Shown one piece after another: positions 5,043 to 29,333 of a stretch of 64,000 nucleotides of DNA. The notes beneath the pieces are model-generated. The model made no database searches, was not told the origin of the DNA, and saw only the letters and a program-made list of their open reading frames with translations. Numbering within the stretch: the stretch's first letter is position 1; each line of letters begins with the position of its first letter. Both the position numbers and the translations under genes were made by a program. The stretch spans positions 192,001 through 256,000 of the IMG/VR virus record IMGVR_UViG_3300017716_001697. One strand, given 5' to 3'. This DNA comes from a virus (Duplodnaviria; Caudoviricetes).

Positions 5043-5242
5043 TATCATTCAAATACCCTAATGGCCCGTACACACTTCTGTGGCAAGCATATGTTGATGC
5101 TGGCTGGGCAAAAGACGGATTTAAGGGGTTTACTTCTAGACTAATCCCATACGCTACAGTAGAGGGCACAACACAAAAGGGTCTGATCCTGCATTTCGAC
5201 AATGAAGAAGATTTCATTGCATTTAAATTGGGGTGGCTATGA
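5039..5242 (+). CDS. Family A small protein
   Basis: Ends LHFDNEEDFIAFKLGWL. Confidence 0.85.
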   Translation: MISFKYPNGPYTLLWQAYVDAGWAKDGFKGFTSRLIPYATVEGTTQKGLILHFDNEEDFIAFKLGWL

Positions 5243-9421: not shown

Positions 9422-9445
9422 GGGGGTATTATCCCCCTTTGTTTT
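9422..9445 (+). terminator. Intrinsic terminator
   Basis: GGGGGT/ATCCCCC stem plus T tract. Confidence 0.7.
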
Positions 9446-9460
9446 CTTAAGGAAAATATC

Positions 9461-10219
9461 ATGGCTTTAGAAAATCTAAAGAAGCACCAAGGGCTTCTTA
9501 AAAATACAGGAGTGCGTGTTGCTGTCGTCTTTAGAAAATTACCTAATGATGATAAGACATGTTTGATTGTCGAAACTGAGAGGCTACCCGATAGCTATCA
9601 TGACTATGTTATGCAAGTCCTTAGTTCACGCGAAGCTTCTGAAACAAACGAATTTTACGAAATTCTTAATCGCAGAACATTCCCAGATGGAACTAACTGC
9701 CTTACATCTTTGCACCAACGCGGATTCTTACGTAGGGAACCTGTTACGAATGTAACAATGGTACCACTACCAGGCCAATCGGTCCCACTAGAACTCATTA
9801 ATGCAACTATTGATAAGAAAGTTGACGAATATGTAGCCCGTCAGAAGGCAGAGAGCGAAGCAGCTAATCCAGTAGCCGATCTTATTGCTAGCACGGTAGC
9901 TAGTGCATCGCCATCTGCCAATGCAGAGTCTATTGCTAAGGGATTAATTGTCCAGGCTGAAATGTTAGAAGCAGATGCTGCTGCAAAGCGTGAAGAAGCA
10001 TACACACTGTATCCTGATTCACGCCCGGGAAGAGGCCGCCCAGCATTGCCAGAAGACACGAAAGCTGTCAAGCTTGAAGAACGTAAGGCAAAGCGTAGAG
10101 AGCGTGATCAACGCAAGGCTGCTGAAGCTAAAGTCGAAAAGAAGGACTCAGCAATCGACGCCAAGGTAAAAGCAAAACTAGTTAGAGATGCATCTCCTAC
10201 TCGTAAGACTGCTATCTAA
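9461..10219 (+). CDS. Hypothetical phage protein with AT-hook-like motif and basic coiled-coil tail
   Basis: 252 aa; RPGRGRP motif; RBS AAGGA. Confidence 0.8.
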   Translation: MALENLKKHQGLLKNTGVRVAVVFRKLPNDDKTCLIVETERLPDSYHDYVMQVLSSREASETNEFYEILNRRTFPDGTNCLTSLHQRGFLRREPVTNVTMVPLPGQSVPLELINATIDKKVDEYVARQKAESEAANPVADLIASTVASASPSANAESIAKGLIVQAEMLEADAAAKREEAYTLYPDSRPGRGRPALPEDTKAVKLEERKAKRRERDQRKAAEAKVEKKDSAIDAKVKAKLVRDASPTRKTAI

Positions 10220-19745: not shown

Positions 19746-19820
19746 CTGGCGTTAGTACAATGGATAGTACAGGGGATTTCTACTCCCTAGATAGGGGTTC
19801 GATTCCTCTACGCCGGACCA
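19746..19820 (+). tRNA. trnR: tRNA-Arg(UCU)
   Basis: Full cloverleaf: acceptor CTGGCGT/ACGCCGG, anticodon loop TT-TCT-AC, T-loop TTCGATT, encoded CCA. Confidence 0.95.
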
Positions 19821-20574: not shown

Positions 20575-20745
20575 ATGATTTGTCCGAAATGTGATACACT
20601 GATGGGTGCAATGGGGTATGGTGATGAACGGTGTCCTGCTTGTGGACACACATCATATTCTGAATCTGATGAAGAATTTAATCTTCGCATATACGGTACA
20701 ACATTCCGTGAAGGCGAAGATATTGACACTGAACAAAGAGAATAA
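20575..20745 (+). CDS. Small Zn-ribbon protein (56 aa, absent from ORF track)
   Basis: MICPKC...RCPACG; stop 1 nt before the rtcB ATG. Confidence 0.7.
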   Translation: MICPKCDTLMGAMGYGDERCPACGHTSYSESDEEFNLRIYGTTFREGEDIDTEQRE

Positions 20746-20746
20746 T

Positions 20747-21940
20747 ATGGAAATCGAAAATGTAAAAATGTGGGTAGGTGATATGGAAGTAGAGCAAGCA
20801 GCTCTATCCCAAATCCTAAACATTTCCCAACTACCTATCCTTGCTGGACACATGGCTATCATGCCAGACGTACACATGGGTAAAGGTGCCACTGTGGGTT
20901 CTGTTATCCCTACACGTTCTGCAATTATTCCTGCGGCTGTGGGTGTGGATATCGGCTGTGGTATGATTGCAGCAATGACCAACCTTACTGCCGATGATCT
21001 TCCTGACTCATTGTTTTCGTTGCGTAATGCAATTGAAAAGGTAGTACCTGTAGGATTCAACGAACACGCAAAGGGCATCCCTTCTGTATCGGGACCTTAC
21101 GCAGATATCCTGCGCAAGAATTTGCACAAGACAATGGATCAATGGGATCACTTGGCAATGAAGCAGCACCTTGGTCGTGCTGACGAAAAGCGCATTGCTC
21201 GCCAAATCGGTACGCTAGGTGGTGGTAACCACTTTATCGAAATCTGTCTCGATACATCTAACCGTGTGTGGATTATGTTACACAGTGGTTCACGCGGTAT
21301 CGGCAATCAAATCGGCACTGTTGCAATCGAAATGGCTAAAGAACAGGCTGCTAAACGTGCATGGGGTCTCCCTGATGCTGATCTTGCATGGCTGGACGAA
21401 GGCACAACCGAATTCGATGCATACATTGAGGCAATGCATTGGGCACAGGACTATGCAAAATTCAACCGCGATACAATGCTGAATTTGGTTATTTCTGCAA
21501 TGAAGGTAAAGTTTCCTACAATGAAGATTGTTGGCGAAGTTGTAAACTGCCACCATAATTTTACAAGCGTGGAAGAGCACTTCAATGAAAAGATCTGGGT
21601 GACACGTAAGGGTGCAGTTTCTGCGCAGTATGGGCAAATGGGTATTATTCCCGGCTCAATGGGTGCAAAGTCATTCATTGTTCGCGGTAAAGGTAATCCT
21701 GATTCCTACTGCTCGTGTTCGCATGGTGCTGGTCGTAAGATGAGCCGCAACCAAGCTAAGAAGTTGTTCACATCACTTGATCTAGAACAACAAACAGCCG
21801 GTGTTGAGTGCCGTAAGGATGCAGACGTAGTTGATGAAATTCCGGGTGCATATAAGGATATTGATCAGGTAATGGCAGCGCAGGCTGATTTGGTTGATAT
21901 TGTACACACGTTGAAGCAAGTTCTTTGTATTAAGGGGTAA
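20747..21940 (+). CDS. rtcB: RtcB RNA ligase (joins 3'-P or 2',3'-cyclic-P to 5'-OH)
   Basis: PDVHMGKG, VGVDIGCG, GTLGGGNHFIE, HSGSRG, HHNF, RKGA, PGSMG, SHGAGR, YKDI motifs. Confidence 0.97.
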   Translation: MEIENVKMWVGDMEVEQAALSQILNISQLPILAGHMAIMPDVHMGKGATVGSVIPTRSAIIPAAVGVDIGCGMIAAMTNLTADDLPDSLFSLRNAIEKVVPVGFNEHAKGIPSVSGPYADILRKNLHKTMDQWDHLAMKQHLGRADEKRIARQIGTLGGGNHFIEICLDTSNRVWIMLHSGSRGIGNQIGTVAIEMAKEQAAKRAWGLPDADLAWLDEGTTEFDAYIEAMHWAQDYAKFNRDTMLNLVISAMKVKFPTMKIVGEVVNCHHNFTSVEEHFNEKIWVTRKGAVSAQYGQMGIIPGSMGAKSFIVRGKGNPDSYCSCSHGAGRKMSRNQAKKLFTSLDLEQQTAGVECRKDADVVDEIPGAYKDIDQVMAAQADLVDIVHTLKQVLCIKG

Positions 21941-23317: not shown

Positions 23318-23395
23318 GCGATGGTAGCTTAGATGGCCTAAAGCCCTCGACTCATAATCGAGATATCGTGGGTTCGACTCCCACCCGTCGCACCA
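23318..23395 (+). tRNA. tRNA with CAU anticodon (elongator Met or Ile2)
   Basis: Acceptor GCGATGG/CCGTCGC, anticodon arm CTCGA-CTCATAA-TCGAG, T-arm GTGGG-TTCGACT-CCCAC, ACCA end. Confidence 0.95.
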
Positions 23396-25663: not shown

Positions 25664-26290
25664 ATGATATGCGAATACGGATGTAATGGGGAGGCCAATC
25701 ATCAATTACTAAACGGTAAATGGTGTTGCAGTAAACGGCCCGCTGGTTGCAAGGTGCTAAAGGCAGTTAACTCGGCAGGTCTGAAGAAAGCGCATAGTGA
25801 GGGTAGGGGCGGATATATTTACAAAGATCTATCTGACGAAACCAAAGCCCGAATGAATTGGGCTAAGGGTAAGACTATTACACCCGATAGCGAAATATTT
25901 ACAGAAAATAGCACATACTCTAACGAGATGGTTAAACATAGAATTGTTAAAGGTGATCTATTAGAATACAAATGCTCTAATCCGAAATGTGGAATAACCG
26001 AATGGTGCGACGAATCTATTGTGTTAGATTTGGATCATATAAATGGTAACAACACAGATAACAGATTATCTAATTTACGATACTTATGCCCAAATTGCCA
26101 TTCTCAGACAGACACATACAAGGGCAGAAATAAGAATACAGGTAAGTTGAAAGTAACCGACACTGAATTGTTGGCAGCATATAAGGAATGCAATAATATT
26201 AGGCAAGCATTAATCAGCGTAGGAATTGCTGCAAAGGGTGGCAATTATGAAAGATTAAAAAAATTAATTAGCAAAACGCTTGCCCTATAG
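25664..26290 (+). CDS. Free-standing HNH homing endonuclease
   Basis: LDLDHINGNNTDNRLSNLRYLCPNCHSQT; N-terminal CEYGC..WCC Zn motif; C-terminal HTH-like tail; late box GATAAATA and RBS AGGAG. Confidence 0.9.
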   Translation: MICEYGCNGEANHQLLNGKWCCSKRPAGCKVLKAVNSAGLKKAHSEGRGGYIYKDLSDETKARMNWAKGKTITPDSEIFTENSTYSNEMVKHRIVKGDLLEYKCSNPKCGITEWCDESIVLDLDHINGNNTDNRLSNLRYLCPNCHSQTDTYKGRNKNTGKLKVTDTELLAAYKECNNIRQALISVGIAAKGGNYERLKKLISKTLAL

Positions 26291-26308
26291 CTAAATATGT
26301 TGTATAAT
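26280..26308 (+). promoter_or_regulatory. Promoter for the tRNA/ncRNA array
   Basis: TTGCCC-N17-TATAAT with an internal TAAATA. Confidence 0.6.
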
Positions 26309-26358: not shown

Positions 26359-26648
26359 GCGGGTATGGAGAAATTGGTAAACTCACCAGACTTAGAGAAA
26401 TAAAATTTGAGTGCCCGGTCGGAAACGATCGGAGTAGAACCTGTCAAATTCGGCGAACACTTTAACATGTCAACGCCGAGCGAAGCCCGAAAGGGAACGT
26501 GTAGAGACTTGACGGCAGGTACCTAACGCAGAAATGCTACGGTAAAGACAAAGTCCAGACTATCAAACCGAGAGGGTAGCGAAAGCTATAGTAGTAAGAA
26601 AATCTGGCGCCGCAAGGCTTGACGGTTCAAGTCCGTCTACCCGCACCA
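26359..26648 (+). tRNA. trnL: tRNA-Leu(UAA) interrupted by a group I intron
   Basis: Exons 26359..26393 and 26599..26648 join into GCGGGTA/TACCCGC acceptor, CCAGA-CTTAAAA-TCTGG anticodon arm, long variable arm and ACCA. Confidence 0.93.
26394..26598 (+). mobile_element. Group I intron (IC3-like, 205 nt, no ORF)
   Basis: P1 ACTT/GAGT with U-G at the splice site; P AAATTCGGCGAA, Q AACGCCGAGCGAAG, R GTGTAGAGACT, S AAGACAAAGTCC; terminal G. Confidence 0.92.
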
Positions 26649-26746
26649 TATTAGGATACATTGTGCAGACGCGGTAGCTAGCCCAAAAGGGACTTTACTA
26701 GCGACAATGGTGAATGCAGGTACAACAGTGTATCCCAATATGGTGC
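26643..26746 (+). ncRNA. Array element E1 (long closing stem, branched interior)
   Basis: GCACCATATT-A-GGATACATTGT / ACAGTGTATCC-C-AATATGGTGC. Confidence 0.75.
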
Positions 26747-26927
26747 CATATTAAAACGCATAAATGCATTAGTTGCATTGGTAATCTGAATGACGTGGAT
26801 AGCTGCATCTTACCCACTGTCAAACAGAGGACATTGCAGGTGATAGCAAATGTAATGGTTTACAGCTAGGCGATTAGAGTCTGGTAGGTGGGTTCAACTC
26901 CTGCTAATGCGGTTTAACATGGCACCA
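26744..26927 (+). ncRNA. Array element E2 (long stem enclosing a tRNA-like domain, ends in CCA)
   Basis: TGCCATATTAAAACGCAT / ATGCGGTTTAACATGGCA; internal T-arm GTGGG-TTCAACT-CCTGC. Confidence 0.7.
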
Positions 26928-27017
26928 TATCGAAGTACATTAACTGAGTACAAGGCTCAGCGTGCGAATTTTAGTAACTAAGCCTCAAGAGGAAGCTATA
27001 GTGTACTTCGATATGGT
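26924..27017 (+). ncRNA. Array element E3
   Basis: Perfect 16-bp stem ACCATATCGAAGTACA/TGTACTTCGATATGGT with three small internal hairpins. Confidence 0.8.
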
Positions 27018-27065
27018 ATAATGTAGACGTATATTGTAACATACACGGAAGGTAATTGGTCCGTG

Positions 27066-27189
27066 AAACTCGACTGTGGTGTAATGGTAGCACTCAAAAG
27101 TTCCTGGTTCGAATCCAGGCCCGCAATAACCAAAGGGGGTTCGGCACAACGAGTAGGAGAGATGGTTCGATTCCGTCCGAATAGAGTTT
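27066..27189 (+). ncRNA. Element E4: D-arm plus two T-arms, no anticodon arm
   Basis: GTGT-AATGGTA-GCAC; CCTGG-TTCGAAT-CCAGG; GATGG-TTCGATT-CCGTC; closed by AAACTC/GAGTTT. Confidence 0.6.
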
Positions 27190-27190
27190 G

Positions 27191-27269
27191 CATATTAGAG
27201 GGCATTATGCTTCTATTTAAAAAGGGAGCCTGTGCTGGCACATTGGCACATCTAATGTCCTCTAATATG
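27191..27269 (+). ncRNA. Array element E5
   Basis: 17-bp stem CATATTAGAGGGCATTA/TAATGTCCTCTAATATG. Confidence 0.8.
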
Positions 27270-27423
27270 ATGCAGGTAGGCAAATGTGGTAAAGCCGCCG
27301 GTTCGGTCCGGTGAGAGATATGTTGAAGTCTTACATGATGACGGGTAGCTGGGTCGACACAGTCCGTACAGTGGCAGGAGCGATATATTTCGTTTATGGG
27401 TTCGATTCCCATCTTGTATCCCA
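27269..27423 (+). ncRNA. tRNA-His-like RNA with 84-nt variable region and 6-nt anticodon loop
   Basis: G-1:C73 pair, acceptor ATGCAGG/CTTGTAT, D-arm GGC/GCC, T-arm ATGGG-TTCGATT-CCCAT, CCA end. Confidence 0.7.
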
Positions 27424-27428
27424 GAATA

Positions 27429-27628
27429 GCCAGGGTAGCTCAGTCAGGCACGAAACTTAAAGGGAAGATGTTGCAACATTCAACGGAGAGAAGTAATGAC
27501 TTAGGAAGGTTAAGTAGTAAGCATCTTATGATACGCGGTGTAAGGTGTGTAGGTGATAGCCAACTATTAAGTAGAGCAACCAGTATCTAACTGGAAGGTC
27601 GTTGGTTCAATTCCATCCGCTGGCACCA
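27429..27628 (+). ncRNA. tRNA-like RNA with a ~120-nt structured D-loop insertion
   Basis: Acceptor GCCAGGG/CGCTGGC, D-stem GCTC/GAGC enclosing 132 nt, anticodon arm CCAG-TATCTAA-CTGG, T-loop TTCAATT, ACCA. Confidence 0.75.
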
Positions 27629-27634
27629 AATTAT

Positions 27635-27749
27635 GCGATGATAGCTTCAGGTTGGTAGAGCGCGTCATTGAATGCCCTATTTATTCTACGTTATGGTATA
27701 TAGGCGAGTGGTCAGGACGAGGTCGCAGGTTCAACGCCTGCTCATTGTA
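27635..27749 (+). ncRNA. tRNA-Phe(GAA)-like RNA with ~40 extra nt in the anticodon loop
   Basis: Acceptor GCGATGA/TCATTGT, D-arm GCTT/GAGC, CGTCA-TT-GAA...GGACG, T-arm GCAGG-TTCAACG-CCTGC. Confidence 0.72.
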
Positions 27750-27753
27750 TAAG

Positions 27754-27861
27754 CCATATGAGAATACACTGTGGAGAGCACTGCGTATGACTGGGAAGGT
27801 TTGAACCCGACTCACATCGTCACTCGGTATCCTGCGGCCGCAACAGTGTATTCCCATATGG
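27754..27861 (+). ncRNA. Array element E7 (paralog of E1)
   Basis: CCATATG-A-GAATACACTGT / ACAGTGTATTC-C-CATATGG; compensatory changes relative to E1. Confidence 0.8.
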
Positions 27862-28185
27862 TACGAAGGGTAGAAGATGATATCAAAGGCTATTTCCTTT
27901 TTTGATAGACGAAACGCTGTGGCCACGGTGTTAGACTACTTATTGGTTAACCATTGTACCGCCAGATTCCGAAGCCTGTAATCAGGCCTGCCAAACAGTA
28001 AATTGGAGTGTGGGAGGACGCACTTAAAACCATCTCCCGCAGGGTCACCATGTGTTATGAGCGGTGATAGTTTAGCGAACCGGAGTCCTAAAAACCGGAA
28101 GGGTAAAGCAAACTTACCTACAAGTAGCGAAAGGTCTGCTATAGCAGTCAAGCCATCCTAGTCTGGAAAACTAGGGTGCATTTAT
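27862..28185 (+). ncRNA. Unassigned multi-hairpin RNA ending in a terminator-like stem
   Basis: Stems TATCAAA/TTTGATA, GCCTG/CAGGC, GAGTGTG/CGCACTT, TCACC/GGTGA, GGGTAA/TTACCT, CATCCTAG/CTAGGGTG. Confidence 0.45.
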
Positions 28186-28348
28186 TTTAGAAAGATATCC
28201 ATATGTACACTTATGCATGGACCATATTTGGTTATTACGGTGGACCTACTATGACAACAAATTATCAACAACACTGTTCGTGGTACACTGTTGACGATTT
28301 TGGTGATCTCGTACCTGCCACATACAAAATGGATTATTTGGAGACAAC

Positions 28349-28558
28349 ATGACACAGAAAATTTACGGATTAATTGCTGACGGCGGTGACGGAAGTTCTA
28401 GCATGCGTTGGTTTCGATCTTTTGATAAGGTTAACGAATTGCTCGACGAAGAGAATGGGCACGAGGAATATTGGGCGAACGAAGGCGGACCTGCCGAAAG
28501 ACTTACCTTCCCCGATGATCTTAATCTTGAGGAGTGCGGATTCTACTTTAGTGACTGA
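28349..28558 (+). CDS. Acidic hypothetical protein
   Basis: RBS GGAG; DGGDGSSS...WF. Confidence 0.7.
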   Translation: MTQKIYGLIADGGDGSSSMRWFRSFDKVNELLDEENGHEEYWANEGGPAERLTFPDDLNLEECGFYFSD

Positions 28559-28874: not shown

Positions 28875-29011
28875 ACCATATCAAATCATATTGCCCTACC
28901 CATTGGGTAGCAGACAGTGGTTGGAAGGATCTGCTCGTTACTCGCCGCGTTGGATGCACTCGGGTTGCACCGATGCCAACAGACAGTGATTGCAGTATGA
29001 TTTGATATGGT
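28875..29011 (+). ncRNA. Array element E8
   Basis: 20-bp stem ACCATATCAAATCATATTGC/GCAGTATGATTTGATATGGT with a branched interior. Confidence 0.8.
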
Positions 29012-29119
29012 CATTATATAGAAACAGAATTCTATGTTACAGGCGTGGGGGGTACGAACCACATTAAATAAATAAGTAACTGAAAATCCTGTGCCCCTCG
29101 AGTATGTTTCTATATGGTG
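29012..29119 (+). ncRNA. Array element E9
   Basis: 15-bp stem CATTATATAGAAACA/TGTTTCTATATGGTG abutting E8. Confidence 0.7.
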
Positions 29120-29242: not shown

Positions 29243-29275
29243 TAACCATTAGACAGCGGCGGCGCCGGGTGTTAT

Positions 29276-29333
29276 AATATGCTGAGCCTAGTACAAAGGG
29301 TCGACACGCAAGATACATAATTCGCAGCATATT
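29276..29333 (+). ncRNA. Array element E11
   Basis: AATATGCTG/CAGCATATT stem abutting E12. Confidence 0.5.

What the first reader, a model, noticed from the sequence alone, without database searches (positions are those of the whole stretch)
27269..27423. tRNA-His-like RNA with a destroyed anticodon and an 84-nt branched variable arm
Seen: intact acceptor, D and T arms and CCA. G at -1 pairs with discriminator C. The anticodon loop is 6 nt (TTCGGT), and the variable region is 84 nt with internal hairpins (ACGG/CCGT, AGCGA/TCGTT). Established: G-1:C73 is the main HisRS identity element. Inference: it may still be histidylated but cannot decode, so it could act as a synthetase sponge, nuclease decoy or tmRNA-like scaffold. 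Its G-1 is also the last base of E5.
Basis: partly seen in the sequence, partly recalled or inferred. Interest (0 to 1): 0.75.

Follow-up and report, generated by a model that had tools for sequence, protein, structure and literature searches.

The report
Non-decoding tRNA-shaped phage RNA
A 365-kb freshwater phage carries a well-kept gene for an RNA shaped like a histidine tRNA that cannot read codons and has a long extra arm ending in an unchanging loop. It is a real, selected RNA of unknown role, not a dead tRNA gene.

Summary
Window 27269-27423 (+) has a 7-bp acceptor stem, G-1:C73, an encoded CCA, canonical D and T arms, and every universal tertiary-contact base. The anticodon arm is cut down to a hairpin with a 6-nt loop, and 83 nt lie in the variable region. 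My strict tRNA-frame scan found this element and 25 tRNA genes in the genome, and nothing in 10 random genomes.

One detail is wrong: the insert is not branched. It is a single rod of about 26 bp.

A second lineage (ENA contigs L134/L135, also seen in run X4) keeps the element. The frame is 76/78 identical. The arm interior is only 22/50 identical, yet every predicted pair is kept: 4 double and 4 single compensatory changes, none broken. The apical 12 nt, including an 8-nt loop with the palindrome GUCGAC, are invariant. This refutes "simple pseudogene".

The element lies in a promoter-to-terminator array of non-coding RNAs. Its neighbours are other tRNA-shaped RNAs with inserts at other permissive sites. 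The phage has a normal tRNA-His elsewhere, and no HisRS, EndA or Ro60.

Best reading: a selected, non-decoding tRNA mimic with a His-type acceptor end. Histidylation is plausible but untested. The scan had already noted this stretch on the same DNA.

The parts
27269..27269 (+). G-1. Pairs with C73 (27420), or alternatively with C27191 as the last pair of module E5.
   Evidence: Conserved in L134. Also kept in the run X3 contig, whose sequence upstream of 27266 is unrelated.
27270..27276 (+). Acceptor stem, 5' strand (ATGCAGG).
   Evidence: Identical in L134.
27277..27296 (+). U8, A9 and the D arm (GGC/GCC stem; loop with A14, A15, G18, G19, A21).
   Evidence: Identical in L134.
27297..27312 (+). 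Short hairpin in the anticodon-arm position: 5 bp (or 4 bp plus a G.U at 26/44) with the 6-nt loop TTCGGT. There is no 7-nt anticodon loop.
   Evidence: Invariant in L134.
27315..27391 (+). Long unbranched arm in the variable region. Basal helix 27315-27325 with 27381-27391, then three short helices; about 26 bp in all.
   Evidence: Independent MFE folds of both lineages give the same architecture. RNAalifold and pair counts show 4 double and 4 one-sided compensatory changes and 0 broken pairs. The interior is 22/50 identical.
27350..27361 (+). Invariant apical 12 nt (TGGGTCGACACA). The 8-nt loop GGTCGACA is 27352-27359 and contains the 6-nt palindrome GTCGAC.
   Evidence: 12/12 identical, while the flanking stems are about 44% identical. 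The 8-mer occurs only twice in the genome.
27392..27395 (+). GTTT linker. U27395 sits at position 48 and could form the Levitt pair with A15.
   Evidence: The pairing role is inferred from canonical tRNA geometry.
27396..27412 (+). T arm (ATGGG TTCGATT CCCAT).
   Evidence: The only change in L134 is G57 to A, purine kept.
27413..27423 (+). Acceptor 3' strand (CTTGTAT), discriminator C73 (27420) and encoded CCA (27421-27423).
   Evidence: In L134, A71 to G turns U2-A71 into U2.G71, so the pair is kept.
27191..27269 (+). Module E5: a 17-bp closing stem plus cargo, directly abutting the element. Its last base is the G-1.
   Evidence: In run X4, G27202 to A turns a G.U into A-U.
26280..26308 (+). 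Promoter-like site in front of the ncRNA array (TTGCCC-17-TATAAT).
   Evidence: This is a consensus match only.
28154..28188 (+). Intrinsic-terminator-like hairpin plus T run that ends the array. Conserved in related phages.
27429..27628 (+). Neighbouring tRNA-shaped RNA with a ~123-nt insert in the D loop (position 20) and a non-canonical anticodon loop (A33).
   Evidence: The same architecture occurs in G004 and L091, with unrelated inserts and a covarying acceptor stem.
27634..27750 (+). Neighbouring tRNA-Phe-like RNA with a ~40-nt insert just 3' of GAA in the anticodon loop.
   Evidence: The T stem shows two double compensatory changes between the window and L134.

Best explanation
Window 27269-27423 is a genuine, selectively maintained gene for a non-decoding tRNA mimic of a 365-kb jumbo phage.

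Shown:
- It has a complete tRNA core: acceptor, D arm, T arm and all universal tertiary-contact bases.
- It has a tRNA-His-type 8-bp acceptor end (G-1:C73) and an encoded CCA.
- Its anticodon arm is truncated, with a 6-nt loop.
- A rod-like arm of 77 nt and about 26 bp sits at the variable-region site, where class II tRNAs carry their extra arm.
- The frame and the apical 8-nt loop are conserved between two lineages. The arm's stems have changed heavily but stay paired.
- It lies on the + strand inside a gene-free array bounded by a promoter-like site and a conserved terminator. Its neighbours are tRNA-shaped RNAs with inserts at two other structurally permissive sites: D-loop position 20 and just 3' of the anticodon.

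Inferred:
- The array is transcribed as one precursor.
- The tRNA core recruits host RNase P, which would cut at -1 because of G-1:C73, as it does for bacterial tRNA-His. It also recruits 3'-end enzymes, giving a stable L-shaped RNA of about 155 nt.
- This RNA cannot enter decoding. It presents the invariant, self-complementary GGUCGACA loop at a fixed distance from the tRNA body, either to bind a partner or to pair with a second copy.
- The acceptor end could be charged by host HisRS. My reading does not require this.

The cellular role is not known. It could be manipulation of host tRNA-handling machinery or service as an RNA scaffold.
For: 1. The frame is real and beyond chance: strict scanner, 26 hits in the genome against 0 in 10 random genomes; ARAGORN intron mode at default thresholds.
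2. A second lineage exists: L134 and L135 from two ENA samples, and a 2,167-nt contig in run X4.
3. Regional identity: frame 76/78, apical 12/12, arm interior 22/50.
4. Both sequences fold on their own into the same cloverleaf plus an unbranched arm.
5. Of 41 consensus pairs, 100% are paired, with 4 double and 4 one-sided compensatory changes. Slid-partner controls give 36-48% paired and 0 compensatory changes.
6. The fold belongs to the + strand: -48/-51 kcal/mol against -27/-29 on the - strand.
7. The overlapping ORFs have no protein homologues beyond these same contigs.
8. The phage has a full canonical tRNA set elsewhere, including tRNA-His, so this copy is not needed for decoding.
9. Neighbouring tRNA-shaped RNAs show the same pattern of conserved frame and variable insert.
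10. Promoter-like and terminator-like sites bracket the array, and the terminator is conserved in G004 and L091.
11. C73 always comes with G-1 in related phage tRNA frames (5 of 187).
Against: - No expression or processing data exist. All informative holders are DNA or ambiguous libraries.
- Only two diverged lineages were found, so covariation rests on one pairwise comparison. In the shuffle control, 37 of 500 shuffles reach the observed values.
- No arm-bearing homologue was found in about 0.9 Mb of related phage loci or in IMG/VR pattern scans.
- The whole-molecule MFE z-score is weak at -1.2.
- G-1 also belongs to the conserved ATATG end of module E5, so it could be there for that reason.
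- The very high divergence of the arm stems beside near-identical flanks could reflect recombination rather than stepwise compensation.
- Nothing identifies a partner for the conserved loop.
Confidence: 0.6

Rival explanations
1. Acceptor-end-centred mimic. The RNA is charged with histidine by host HisRS and works through that end. It could be a HisRS or His-tRNA sponge, a non-ribosomal aminoacyl donor, or a decoy for host toxins that attack tRNA acceptor ends. On this view the long arm only blocks entry into the ribosome or adds stability.
For: G-1:C73 and CCA are conserved in both lineages, and G-1 persists in a third upstream context. C73 is rare and always comes with G-1 in related phage tRNAs. 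HisRS charges minihelices and microhelices that carry G-1:C73, and plant-virus tRNA-like structures with an N-1:N73 pair are HisRS substrates that do not decode (PMC9976931). RtcB and tRNAs lie nearby, which fits a conflict over tRNA.
Against: There are no charging data. The phage has no HisRS and already carries a normal tRNA-His. An invariant apical loop at the end of an arm of conserved length is not explained if the arm is only a steric block. Anticodon nucleases need the anticodon loop, which this RNA lacks.
Confidence: 0.2
2. Processing punctuation only. The tRNA shape exists just to recruit RNase P and 3' enzymes, so that neighbouring modules such as E5 are cut out of the polycistronic precursor. 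The tRNA-like RNA itself would be a by-product.
For: The packing is tight and spacer-free. E5 ends at G-1, and modules begin inside the ACCA of the preceding tRNA. tRNA punctuation is an established principle in organelles and in T4 tRNA precursors (my own knowledge).
Against: A punctuation signal needs neither a 77-nt arm of conserved length, an invariant apical loop, a His-type acceptor end nor a conserved 6-nt-loop hairpin.
Confidence: 0.08
3. Intron-containing pre-tRNA. The insert is excised by an endonuclease and the halves are joined by the phage RtcB, giving a decoding tRNA (for example ARAGORN's CUA-anticodon model).
For: ARAGORN intron mode proposes a tRNA(cta) with a 62-nt intron. 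RtcB lies 5.3 kb upstream. The adjacent tRNA-Leu has a true group I intron.
Against: ARAGORN's model needs a cut inside the anticodon, a G.G mismatch and C37. No excision of the arm restores a 5-bp stem and a 7-nt loop, and the 6-nt-loop hairpin is itself conserved. The phage has no tRNA-splicing endonuclease family. Rfam shows no ribozyme or intron in the element. At 77 nt the arm is far below group I intron size.
Confidence: 0.04
4. Decaying tRNA pseudogene disrupted by an insertion. What remains tRNA-like is residual.
For: No close homologue was found in most related phages. Partial tRNA-like fragments lie nearby at 27066-27190.
Against: All tertiary-contact bases, the CCA and the acceptor pairing are intact. 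The frame is 97% identical between lineages whose neighbouring sequence differs by 10-20%. Changes in the arm and acceptor are compensatory and no pair is broken.
Confidence: 0.04
5. A DNA-level element. This could be a promoter-like site at 27243-27271, or a protein-binding palindrome at GTCGAC, with the RNA fold being incidental.
For: A sigma-70-like match (10 of 12) overlaps 27243-27271. The region 27243-27322 is invariant. GTCGAC is a perfect DNA palindrome.
Against: Promoter-like matches in the region are near chance: 15 found against 9.2 +/- 2.9 expected. The strong strand asymmetry of folding and the use of G.U pairs point to RNA. Compensatory changes across 60-nt distances are not expected for a protein-binding site.
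Confidence: 0.03

Closest known systems
Bacterial tRNA-His (G-1:C73 acceptor end)
   Same: An 8-bp acceptor helix formed with a genome-encoded G-1 opposite C73, an encoded CCA, a canonical D/T elbow, and a 7/5 acceptor/T stack plus the extra pair.
   Different: There is no GUG anticodon and no 7-nt loop. A 77-nt arm replaces the 4-5-nt variable loop. It does not resemble the phage's own tRNA-His and is below the Rfam tRNA threshold.
Plant-virus 3' tRNA-like structures (TLS), e.g. the histidine-accepting tobamovirus type
   Same: A virus-encoded, non-decoding tRNA mimic with an N-1:N73 pair and CCA that HisRS can charge (PMC9976931). This is the nearest match for how it may work.
   Different: TLSs are 3' ends of RNA genomes with pseudoknotted acceptor arms in eukaryotic hosts. 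This element is a free-standing gene in a dsDNA phage, with a true cloverleaf core. No homology was tested or is expected.
Phage T4 small stable RNAs, species 1 (rnaC) and species 2 (rnaD)
   Same: Non-tRNA stable RNAs encoded inside a phage tRNA cluster. rnaC (139 nt) has a canonical T arm, 5'/3' end pairing and long hairpins in place of the other arms. Their function is still unknown (my own knowledge).
   Different: My covariance model does not match rnaC or rnaD. rnaC lacks the D arm, the G-1:C73 end and an encoded CCA.
Class II tRNAs (Leu, Ser, Tyr, Sec) with long variable arms
   Same: The extra arm leaves the core at the same site. The covariance model's best non-self hits are class II tRNAs.
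   Different: To my knowledge, natural variable arms reach about 20 nt. This one is 77 nt with a conserved apical loop, and the anticodon arm is defective.
tmRNA tRNA-like domain; bacterial Y RNA (YrlA) tRNA-like domain
   Same: tRNA mimicry joined to a large non-tRNA domain. Y RNAs are linked to RtcB operons (PMC7824862; PMC7790460 title and abstract).
   Different: There is no tag reading frame or pseudoknots and no ARAGORN tmRNA call here; the phage has a separate tmRNA. There is no Ro60/TROVE gene, no permuted topology and no Rfam match.

Membership tests
tRNA-His (bacterial) | G-1 paired with C73, followed by CCA | tested here: met
   Sequence and fold. Conserved in L134. C73 comes with G-1 in 5 of 5 related frames that have C73.
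tRNA-His (bacterial) | GUG anticodon in a 7-nt loop on a 5-bp stem | tested here: not met
   The loop is TTCGGT (6 nt) and contains no GTG. ARAGORN standard mode does not call it.
tRNA (Rfam RF00005 / clan CL00001) | Score at or above the family gathering threshold | tested here: not met
   No tRNA hit at the gathering threshold or at E<=10. There is only a partial tRNA-Sec alignment at 18 bits against a threshold of 47.
tRNA (structural definition) | L-shape core bases: U8, A14, R15-Y48, G18, G19, U54, U55, C56, A58, G53-C61 | tested here: met
   All are present at the expected places and invariant in L134. The 3D fold itself is not testable here.
Protein-spliced intron-containing tRNA (archaeal/eukaryal type) | A splicing endonuclease is available, and excision yields a canonical anticodon stem-loop | tested here: not met
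   PF01974 is absent from the complete phage genome, with working controls. No excision restores a 5-bp stem and 7-nt loop. A host enzyme is not testable.
Group I intron-containing tRNA | Group I catalytic core in the insert | tested here: not met
   Rfam finds the group I intron in the neighbouring tRNA-Leu but nothing in 27269-27423. The insert is only 77-83 nt.
tmRNA | tRNA-like domain plus a tag-peptide reading frame and pseudoknots | tested here: not met
   ARAGORN calls a tmRNA elsewhere in the genome but not here. The only ATG run in the arm is lost in L134.
Bacterial Y RNA (YrlA-like) | Ro60/TROVE partner, and termini at the end of a Ro-binding stem | tested here: not met
   No TROVE domain in the phage. 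The termini are at the acceptor stem. No Rfam match.
T4 rnaC/rnaD-type phage stable RNAs | Sequence or structure homology to rnaC or rnaD | tested here: not met
   Model R1 hits T4 tRNA-Leu, tRNA-Ser and tRNA-Pro but not rnaC or rnaD. Only the architecture and the genomic setting are alike.
Viral tRNA-like structure chargeable by HisRS | Aminoacylation by HisRS | not testable with these tools
   This needs an in vitro or in vivo charging assay. Only the sequence determinants are present.

The most novel reading that the evidence does not exclude
This phage lineage may encode a family of 'armed' tRNA mimics. These are L-shaped tRNA cores that carry accessory arms at the three solvent-exposed permissive sites: the variable region, D-loop position 20 and the anticodon loop 3' of position 37. 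The His-type member would be matured at -1 by RNase P and charged by host HisRS. It would dimerise, or dock to a partner RNA, through its invariant self-complementary GGUCGACA loop. The resulting RNA device would hijack or disarm host tRNA-handling or tRNA-targeting defence machinery.
Probability: 0.15. Interest if true: 0.85.

Novelty: new variant of a known kind. Interest (0 to 1): 0.62.

Why it matters
Phage tRNA clusters have been known since T4 to hold stable RNAs of unknown function, and none has been explained. This case is unusually clear. It has a perfect tRNA core with a histidine-type acceptor end, deliberately unable to decode, and it carries a long arm whose length and tip are conserved while its stems evolve quickly. 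It sits beside siblings that carry inserts at other permissive sites of the tRNA fold.

If expressed, these would be natural counterparts of the engineered 'tRNA scaffold'. They would also be a bacterial-virus parallel to the plant-virus tRNA-like structures. That makes several questions testable:
- whether phages use tRNA mimics against host tRNA enzymes or defences;
- whether HisRS charges such a mimic;
- whether RNA-RNA kissing builds higher-order assemblies from them.

Tried and rejected
1. Sequence searches for homologues found nothing beyond generic T-arm matches. I used blastn and nhmmer against 80 RtcB-anchored loci, 26 ligase-anchored viral loci and 22 metagenome loci. Exact-pattern scans of IMG/VR also failed. 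A gapped pattern gave one chance hit, L136, which model R1 rejects. The INPHARED phage collection gave no hit over the element.
2. Model R1 over 916 kb of related loci returned only the two training sequences plus ordinary tRNAs with the arm skipped.
3. The overlapping spurious ORF 26996-27412 (-) matched only itself. phmmer of P0002 against 1.84 billion representatives found no further relatives, and neither did a repeat word search.
4. I asked whether the arm is a copy of the neighbouring stem-closed 'E' modules. Local alignment against 10 modules gave z <= 2.1, which is not significant.
5. I asked whether an internal second tRNA 5' half lies at 27337. This rests on an Rfam tRNA-Sec partial hit (E=3.9) and a low-threshold ARAGORN call; the pairing is poor and the sequence is not conserved in L134.
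6. The Y-RNA/Ro, archaeal-splicing and phage-HisRS ideas fail because the partner genes are absent.
7. Expression: no listed holder of 27243-27423 is on record as RNA. Run X4 is labelled RNA-Seq cDNA but is probably DNA.
8. The cultured relative XaC1 has no long tRNA-like frame in the 40 kb around its tRNA-Leu.
9. PHROGs and Pfam scans of neighbouring small ORFs, and of the 350-aa ORF after RtcB, were uninformative.
10. Literature searches found no description of such phage RNAs.

Full report
**Setting.** The window is bases 192001-256000 of a complete 364,576-bp virus record with direct terminal repeats, 41.6% G+C. The phage has 44 standard tRNA genes and a tmRNA at genome positions 3.8-56 kb. 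These include a normal tRNA-His(GTG) and a CUA suppressor. A second, separate RNA region lies in the window:
- tRNA-Arg at 19746;
- RtcB at 20606-21940 (Pfam E = 1e-127);
- tRNA-Met at 23318;
- an HNH endonuclease gene;
- a tRNA-Leu(UAA) split by a 205-nt group I intron, 26359-26648;
- about 1.7 kb without credible genes, 26640-28350.

A promoter-like site (26280-26308) precedes this stretch. An intrinsic-terminator-like hairpin (28154-28188) ends it, and that hairpin is conserved in related phages. The stretch holds stem-closed modules (CCATAT...ATATGG) interleaved with tRNA-shaped elements. Six T arms lie on the + strand within 850 nt.

**The observation.** Window 27269-27423 reads, in order:
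- G-1;
- a 7-bp acceptor stem (two G.U pairs);
- U8 and A9;
- a D arm with A14, A15, G18, G19 and A21;
- a hairpin of 5 bp with the 6-nt loop TTCGGT;
- GA;
- 77 nt of arm;
- GTTT;
- a consensus T arm;
- the acceptor 3' strand;
- C73 and CCA.

ARAGORN in standard mode and Rfam do not call it a tRNA. ARAGORN intron mode does, at default thresholds.

I wrote a strict frame scanner. It requires a T arm, a 7-bp acceptor, U8 and a D arm with A14 and GG, and it allows any length up to 330 nt. It returns 26 hits in the genome: 24 ordinary tRNAs, the intron-bearing tRNA-Leu and this element. It returns none in ten Markov-1 random genomes of equal size. So the tRNA frame is real.

The minimum-energy fold is a single irregular rod of about 26 bp with an 8-nt loop.

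**Homologues.** Most searches failed (see Tried and rejected). Two routes worked.
1. Laying public contigs on the region showed a 2,167-nt contig in run X4 covering 26943-27964, with 99 substitutions and 54 gap letters. It had no difference anywhere in 27243-27322 and a burst of changes from 27323 on. A contig in run X3 was identical over 27266-27374 but unlike the window upstream of 27266.
2. A spurious ORF overlapping the element (27396-27590) found a 92%-identical 'protein' in ENA. Its contigs, L134 and L135, come from two samples. They carry the whole element and its neighbours.

**What the comparison shows.**
- The frame is 76/78 identical. The two changes are G57 to A in the T loop (purine kept) and A71 to G (U2-A71 becomes U2.G71).
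- G-1, C73, CCA, the D arm and the 6-nt-loop hairpin are unchanged.
- The interior of the arm is only 22/50 identical.
- The apical 12 nt are 12/12 identical.
- Each sequence folds on its own into the same cloverleaf plus an unbranched arm of 26 bp, at -48.4 and -50.7 kcal/mol.
- On the alignment, RNAalifold predicts 41 pairs. All cells are paired, with 4 pairs changed on both sides, 4 on one side and none broken. Sliding the partners by 1-3 columns gives 36-48% pairing and no compensatory change.
- The reverse strand folds about 21 kcal/mol worse.

With only two lineages the statistics are modest: 37 of 500 column shuffles reach the observed values. Even so, the pattern of conserved frame, conserved tip and rewritten but paired stems is what selection on an RNA structure produces.

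**Identity of the acceptor end.** Among 187 distinct tRNA frames in the related loci, C73 occurs five times and each time G stands at -1. G at -1 is otherwise rare. The combination here is therefore unlikely to be an accident, although the G is also the last base of the conserved ATATG end of module E5. It persists in the X3 context, where E5 is replaced.

According to the review PMC9976931, HisRS charges 13-bp minihelices and 8-bp microhelices that carry G-1:C73. The same review states that plant-virus tRNA-like structures with an N-1:N73 pair are HisRS substrates that do not decode. Charging is thus plausible but wholly untested. The phage has no HisRS of its own, and the element does not resemble the phage's own tRNA-His.

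**Why it cannot be a decoding tRNA or a precursor of one.**
- The anticodon-position hairpin has a 6-nt loop, and it is conserved as such.
- No excision of the arm produces a 5-bp stem with a 7-nt loop.
- ARAGORN's CUA model needs a cut inside the anticodon, a G.G mismatch and C37.
- The phage lacks the tRNA-splicing endonuclease family.
- Rfam finds no ribozyme or intron in the element.
- There is no conserved reading frame, so a tmRNA-like role is unsupported.
- There is no Ro60 gene, and the topology is not that of a Y RNA.

**Context supports a class, not a one-off.**
- The next gene (27429-27628) is a tRNA frame with a ~123-nt insert at D-loop position 20. The same architecture occurs in two more distant phages (G004, L091). 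Their inserts are unrelated, their acceptor stems covary, and position 33 is A, U or G.
- The following gene (27634-27750) is tRNA-Phe-like with a ~40-nt insert just 3' of GAA. Its T stem shows two double compensatory changes between the window and L134.
- Other relatives carry long tRNA frames of 115, 141 and 191 nt at the same locus. The 191-nt one has a 126-nt version in which the middle is replaced.

The three insert sites are the variable region, D-loop position 20 and the anticodon loop 3' of the anticodon. From established tRNA structure, these are the places where extra nucleotides can project into solvent without disturbing the L shape. That fits a design of tRNA core plus accessory arm.

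**Mechanism.**
- *Shown:* the architecture, its conservation, its strand, its place in a bounded non-coding array, and the absence of decoding capacity.
- *Inferred:* co-transcription with the array; 5' maturation by RNase P at -1 and 3' maturation to the encoded CCA; accumulation as a stable L-shaped RNA of about 155 nt; action through the invariant GGUCGACA loop held about 26 bp from the core.

That loop contains the self-complementary GUCGAC, so loop-loop pairing of two copies is possible. The 10-mer GGGTCGACAC occurs once more in the genome, at 29297-29306 in the second RNA array. The 8-mer GGTCGACA has just these two copies, against about 3.5 expected by my own estimate from base composition. 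I could not show that this second site is conserved.

It also remains open whether the short hairpin or the long arm occupies the anticodon-arm position in three dimensions.

**Comparison with known systems.** By mode of action, the nearest known system is the plant-virus histidine-accepting tRNA-like structure. By setting, it is T4 species 1 RNA (rnaC), a 139-nt stable RNA in the T4 tRNA cluster with a T arm and long hairpins. My model does not match rnaC. The element is not a member of tRNA-His, tmRNA, Y RNA or intron-bearing tRNA families, because defining features were tested and failed. I found no paper describing such phage RNAs.

**Verdict.** This is a real, selected, non-decoding tRNA mimic with a His-type acceptor end and a conserved-tip arm. 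It is a new variant of the known kind 'viral/phage tRNA-like RNA'. Its function is unknown, and the decoy or sponge ideas are neither supported nor excluded.

Noticed in passing
window 27973-28190: A structured RNA of about 220 nt just upstream of, and including, the array's terminator. It is conserved in L091 and G004, with 16 pairs changed on both sides. A 187-nt contig from a metatranscriptome library (run X9) differs from 27985-28171 by one letter. It has no Rfam match.
   Followed up: partly
window 27429-27628; L082:2657-2847; L091:4796-4981: A tRNA frame with a 100-125-nt insert at D-loop position 20, conserved in three phages. The inserts are unrelated, the acceptor stem covaries, and anticodon-loop position 33 is variable (A, U, G).
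   Followed up: partly
window 27634-27750; L134:407-524: A tRNA-Phe-like frame (GAA) with a ~40-nt insert just 3' of the anticodon. The insert is almost identical in L134, while the T stem carries two double compensatory changes.
   Followed up: partly
window 26643-27017, 27191-27269, 27754-27861, 28876-29117; L082 (G004 179103-180512): Stem-closed modules that start CCATAT and end ATATGG. The start overlaps the ACCA of the preceding tRNA. Module E3 is 87% identical in G004 and nearly unchanged in run X4, whereas the interior of E7 is replaced in L134.
   Followed up: partly
window 27066-27190: Two partial tRNA-like pieces, each with a good T arm but no complete acceptor or anticodon arm. In run X4 the first T stem changes C-G to G.U on both sides.
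   Followed up: no
window 29297-29306: The only other genomic copy of GGGTCGACAC, the motif of the element's invariant loop. It lies just after a strong promoter-like site (29250-29278) in the second RNA array, in weakly structured sequence.
   Followed up: partly
run X3 contig over window 27266-27374: Identical to the window across the 5' two-thirds of the element but unrelated upstream of 27266. Module E5 is therefore replaced in that population, so the array is mosaic.
   Followed up: no
L086:6068-6258; L087:5230-5355; L091:4613-4727 and 5073-5213: Related phages carry other long tRNA frames (191, 126, 115 and 141 nt) at the same locus, between tRNA-Leu(UAA) and the ligase gene. The 191-nt and 126-nt ones share their ends but differ in the middle (91 against about 21 nt).
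   Followed up: partly
genome positions 9424-9501 (outside the window): The phage's canonical tRNA-His(GTG) has G-1:C73 but two mismatches in its acceptor stem.
   Followed up: no
whole genome: Several 6-bp palindromes are strongly avoided: AGCGCT 2 against 57 expected, CGCGCG 2 against 29, ACGCGT 5 against 57. This suggests restriction avoidance. GTCGAC is not avoided (60 against 57).
   Followed up: no
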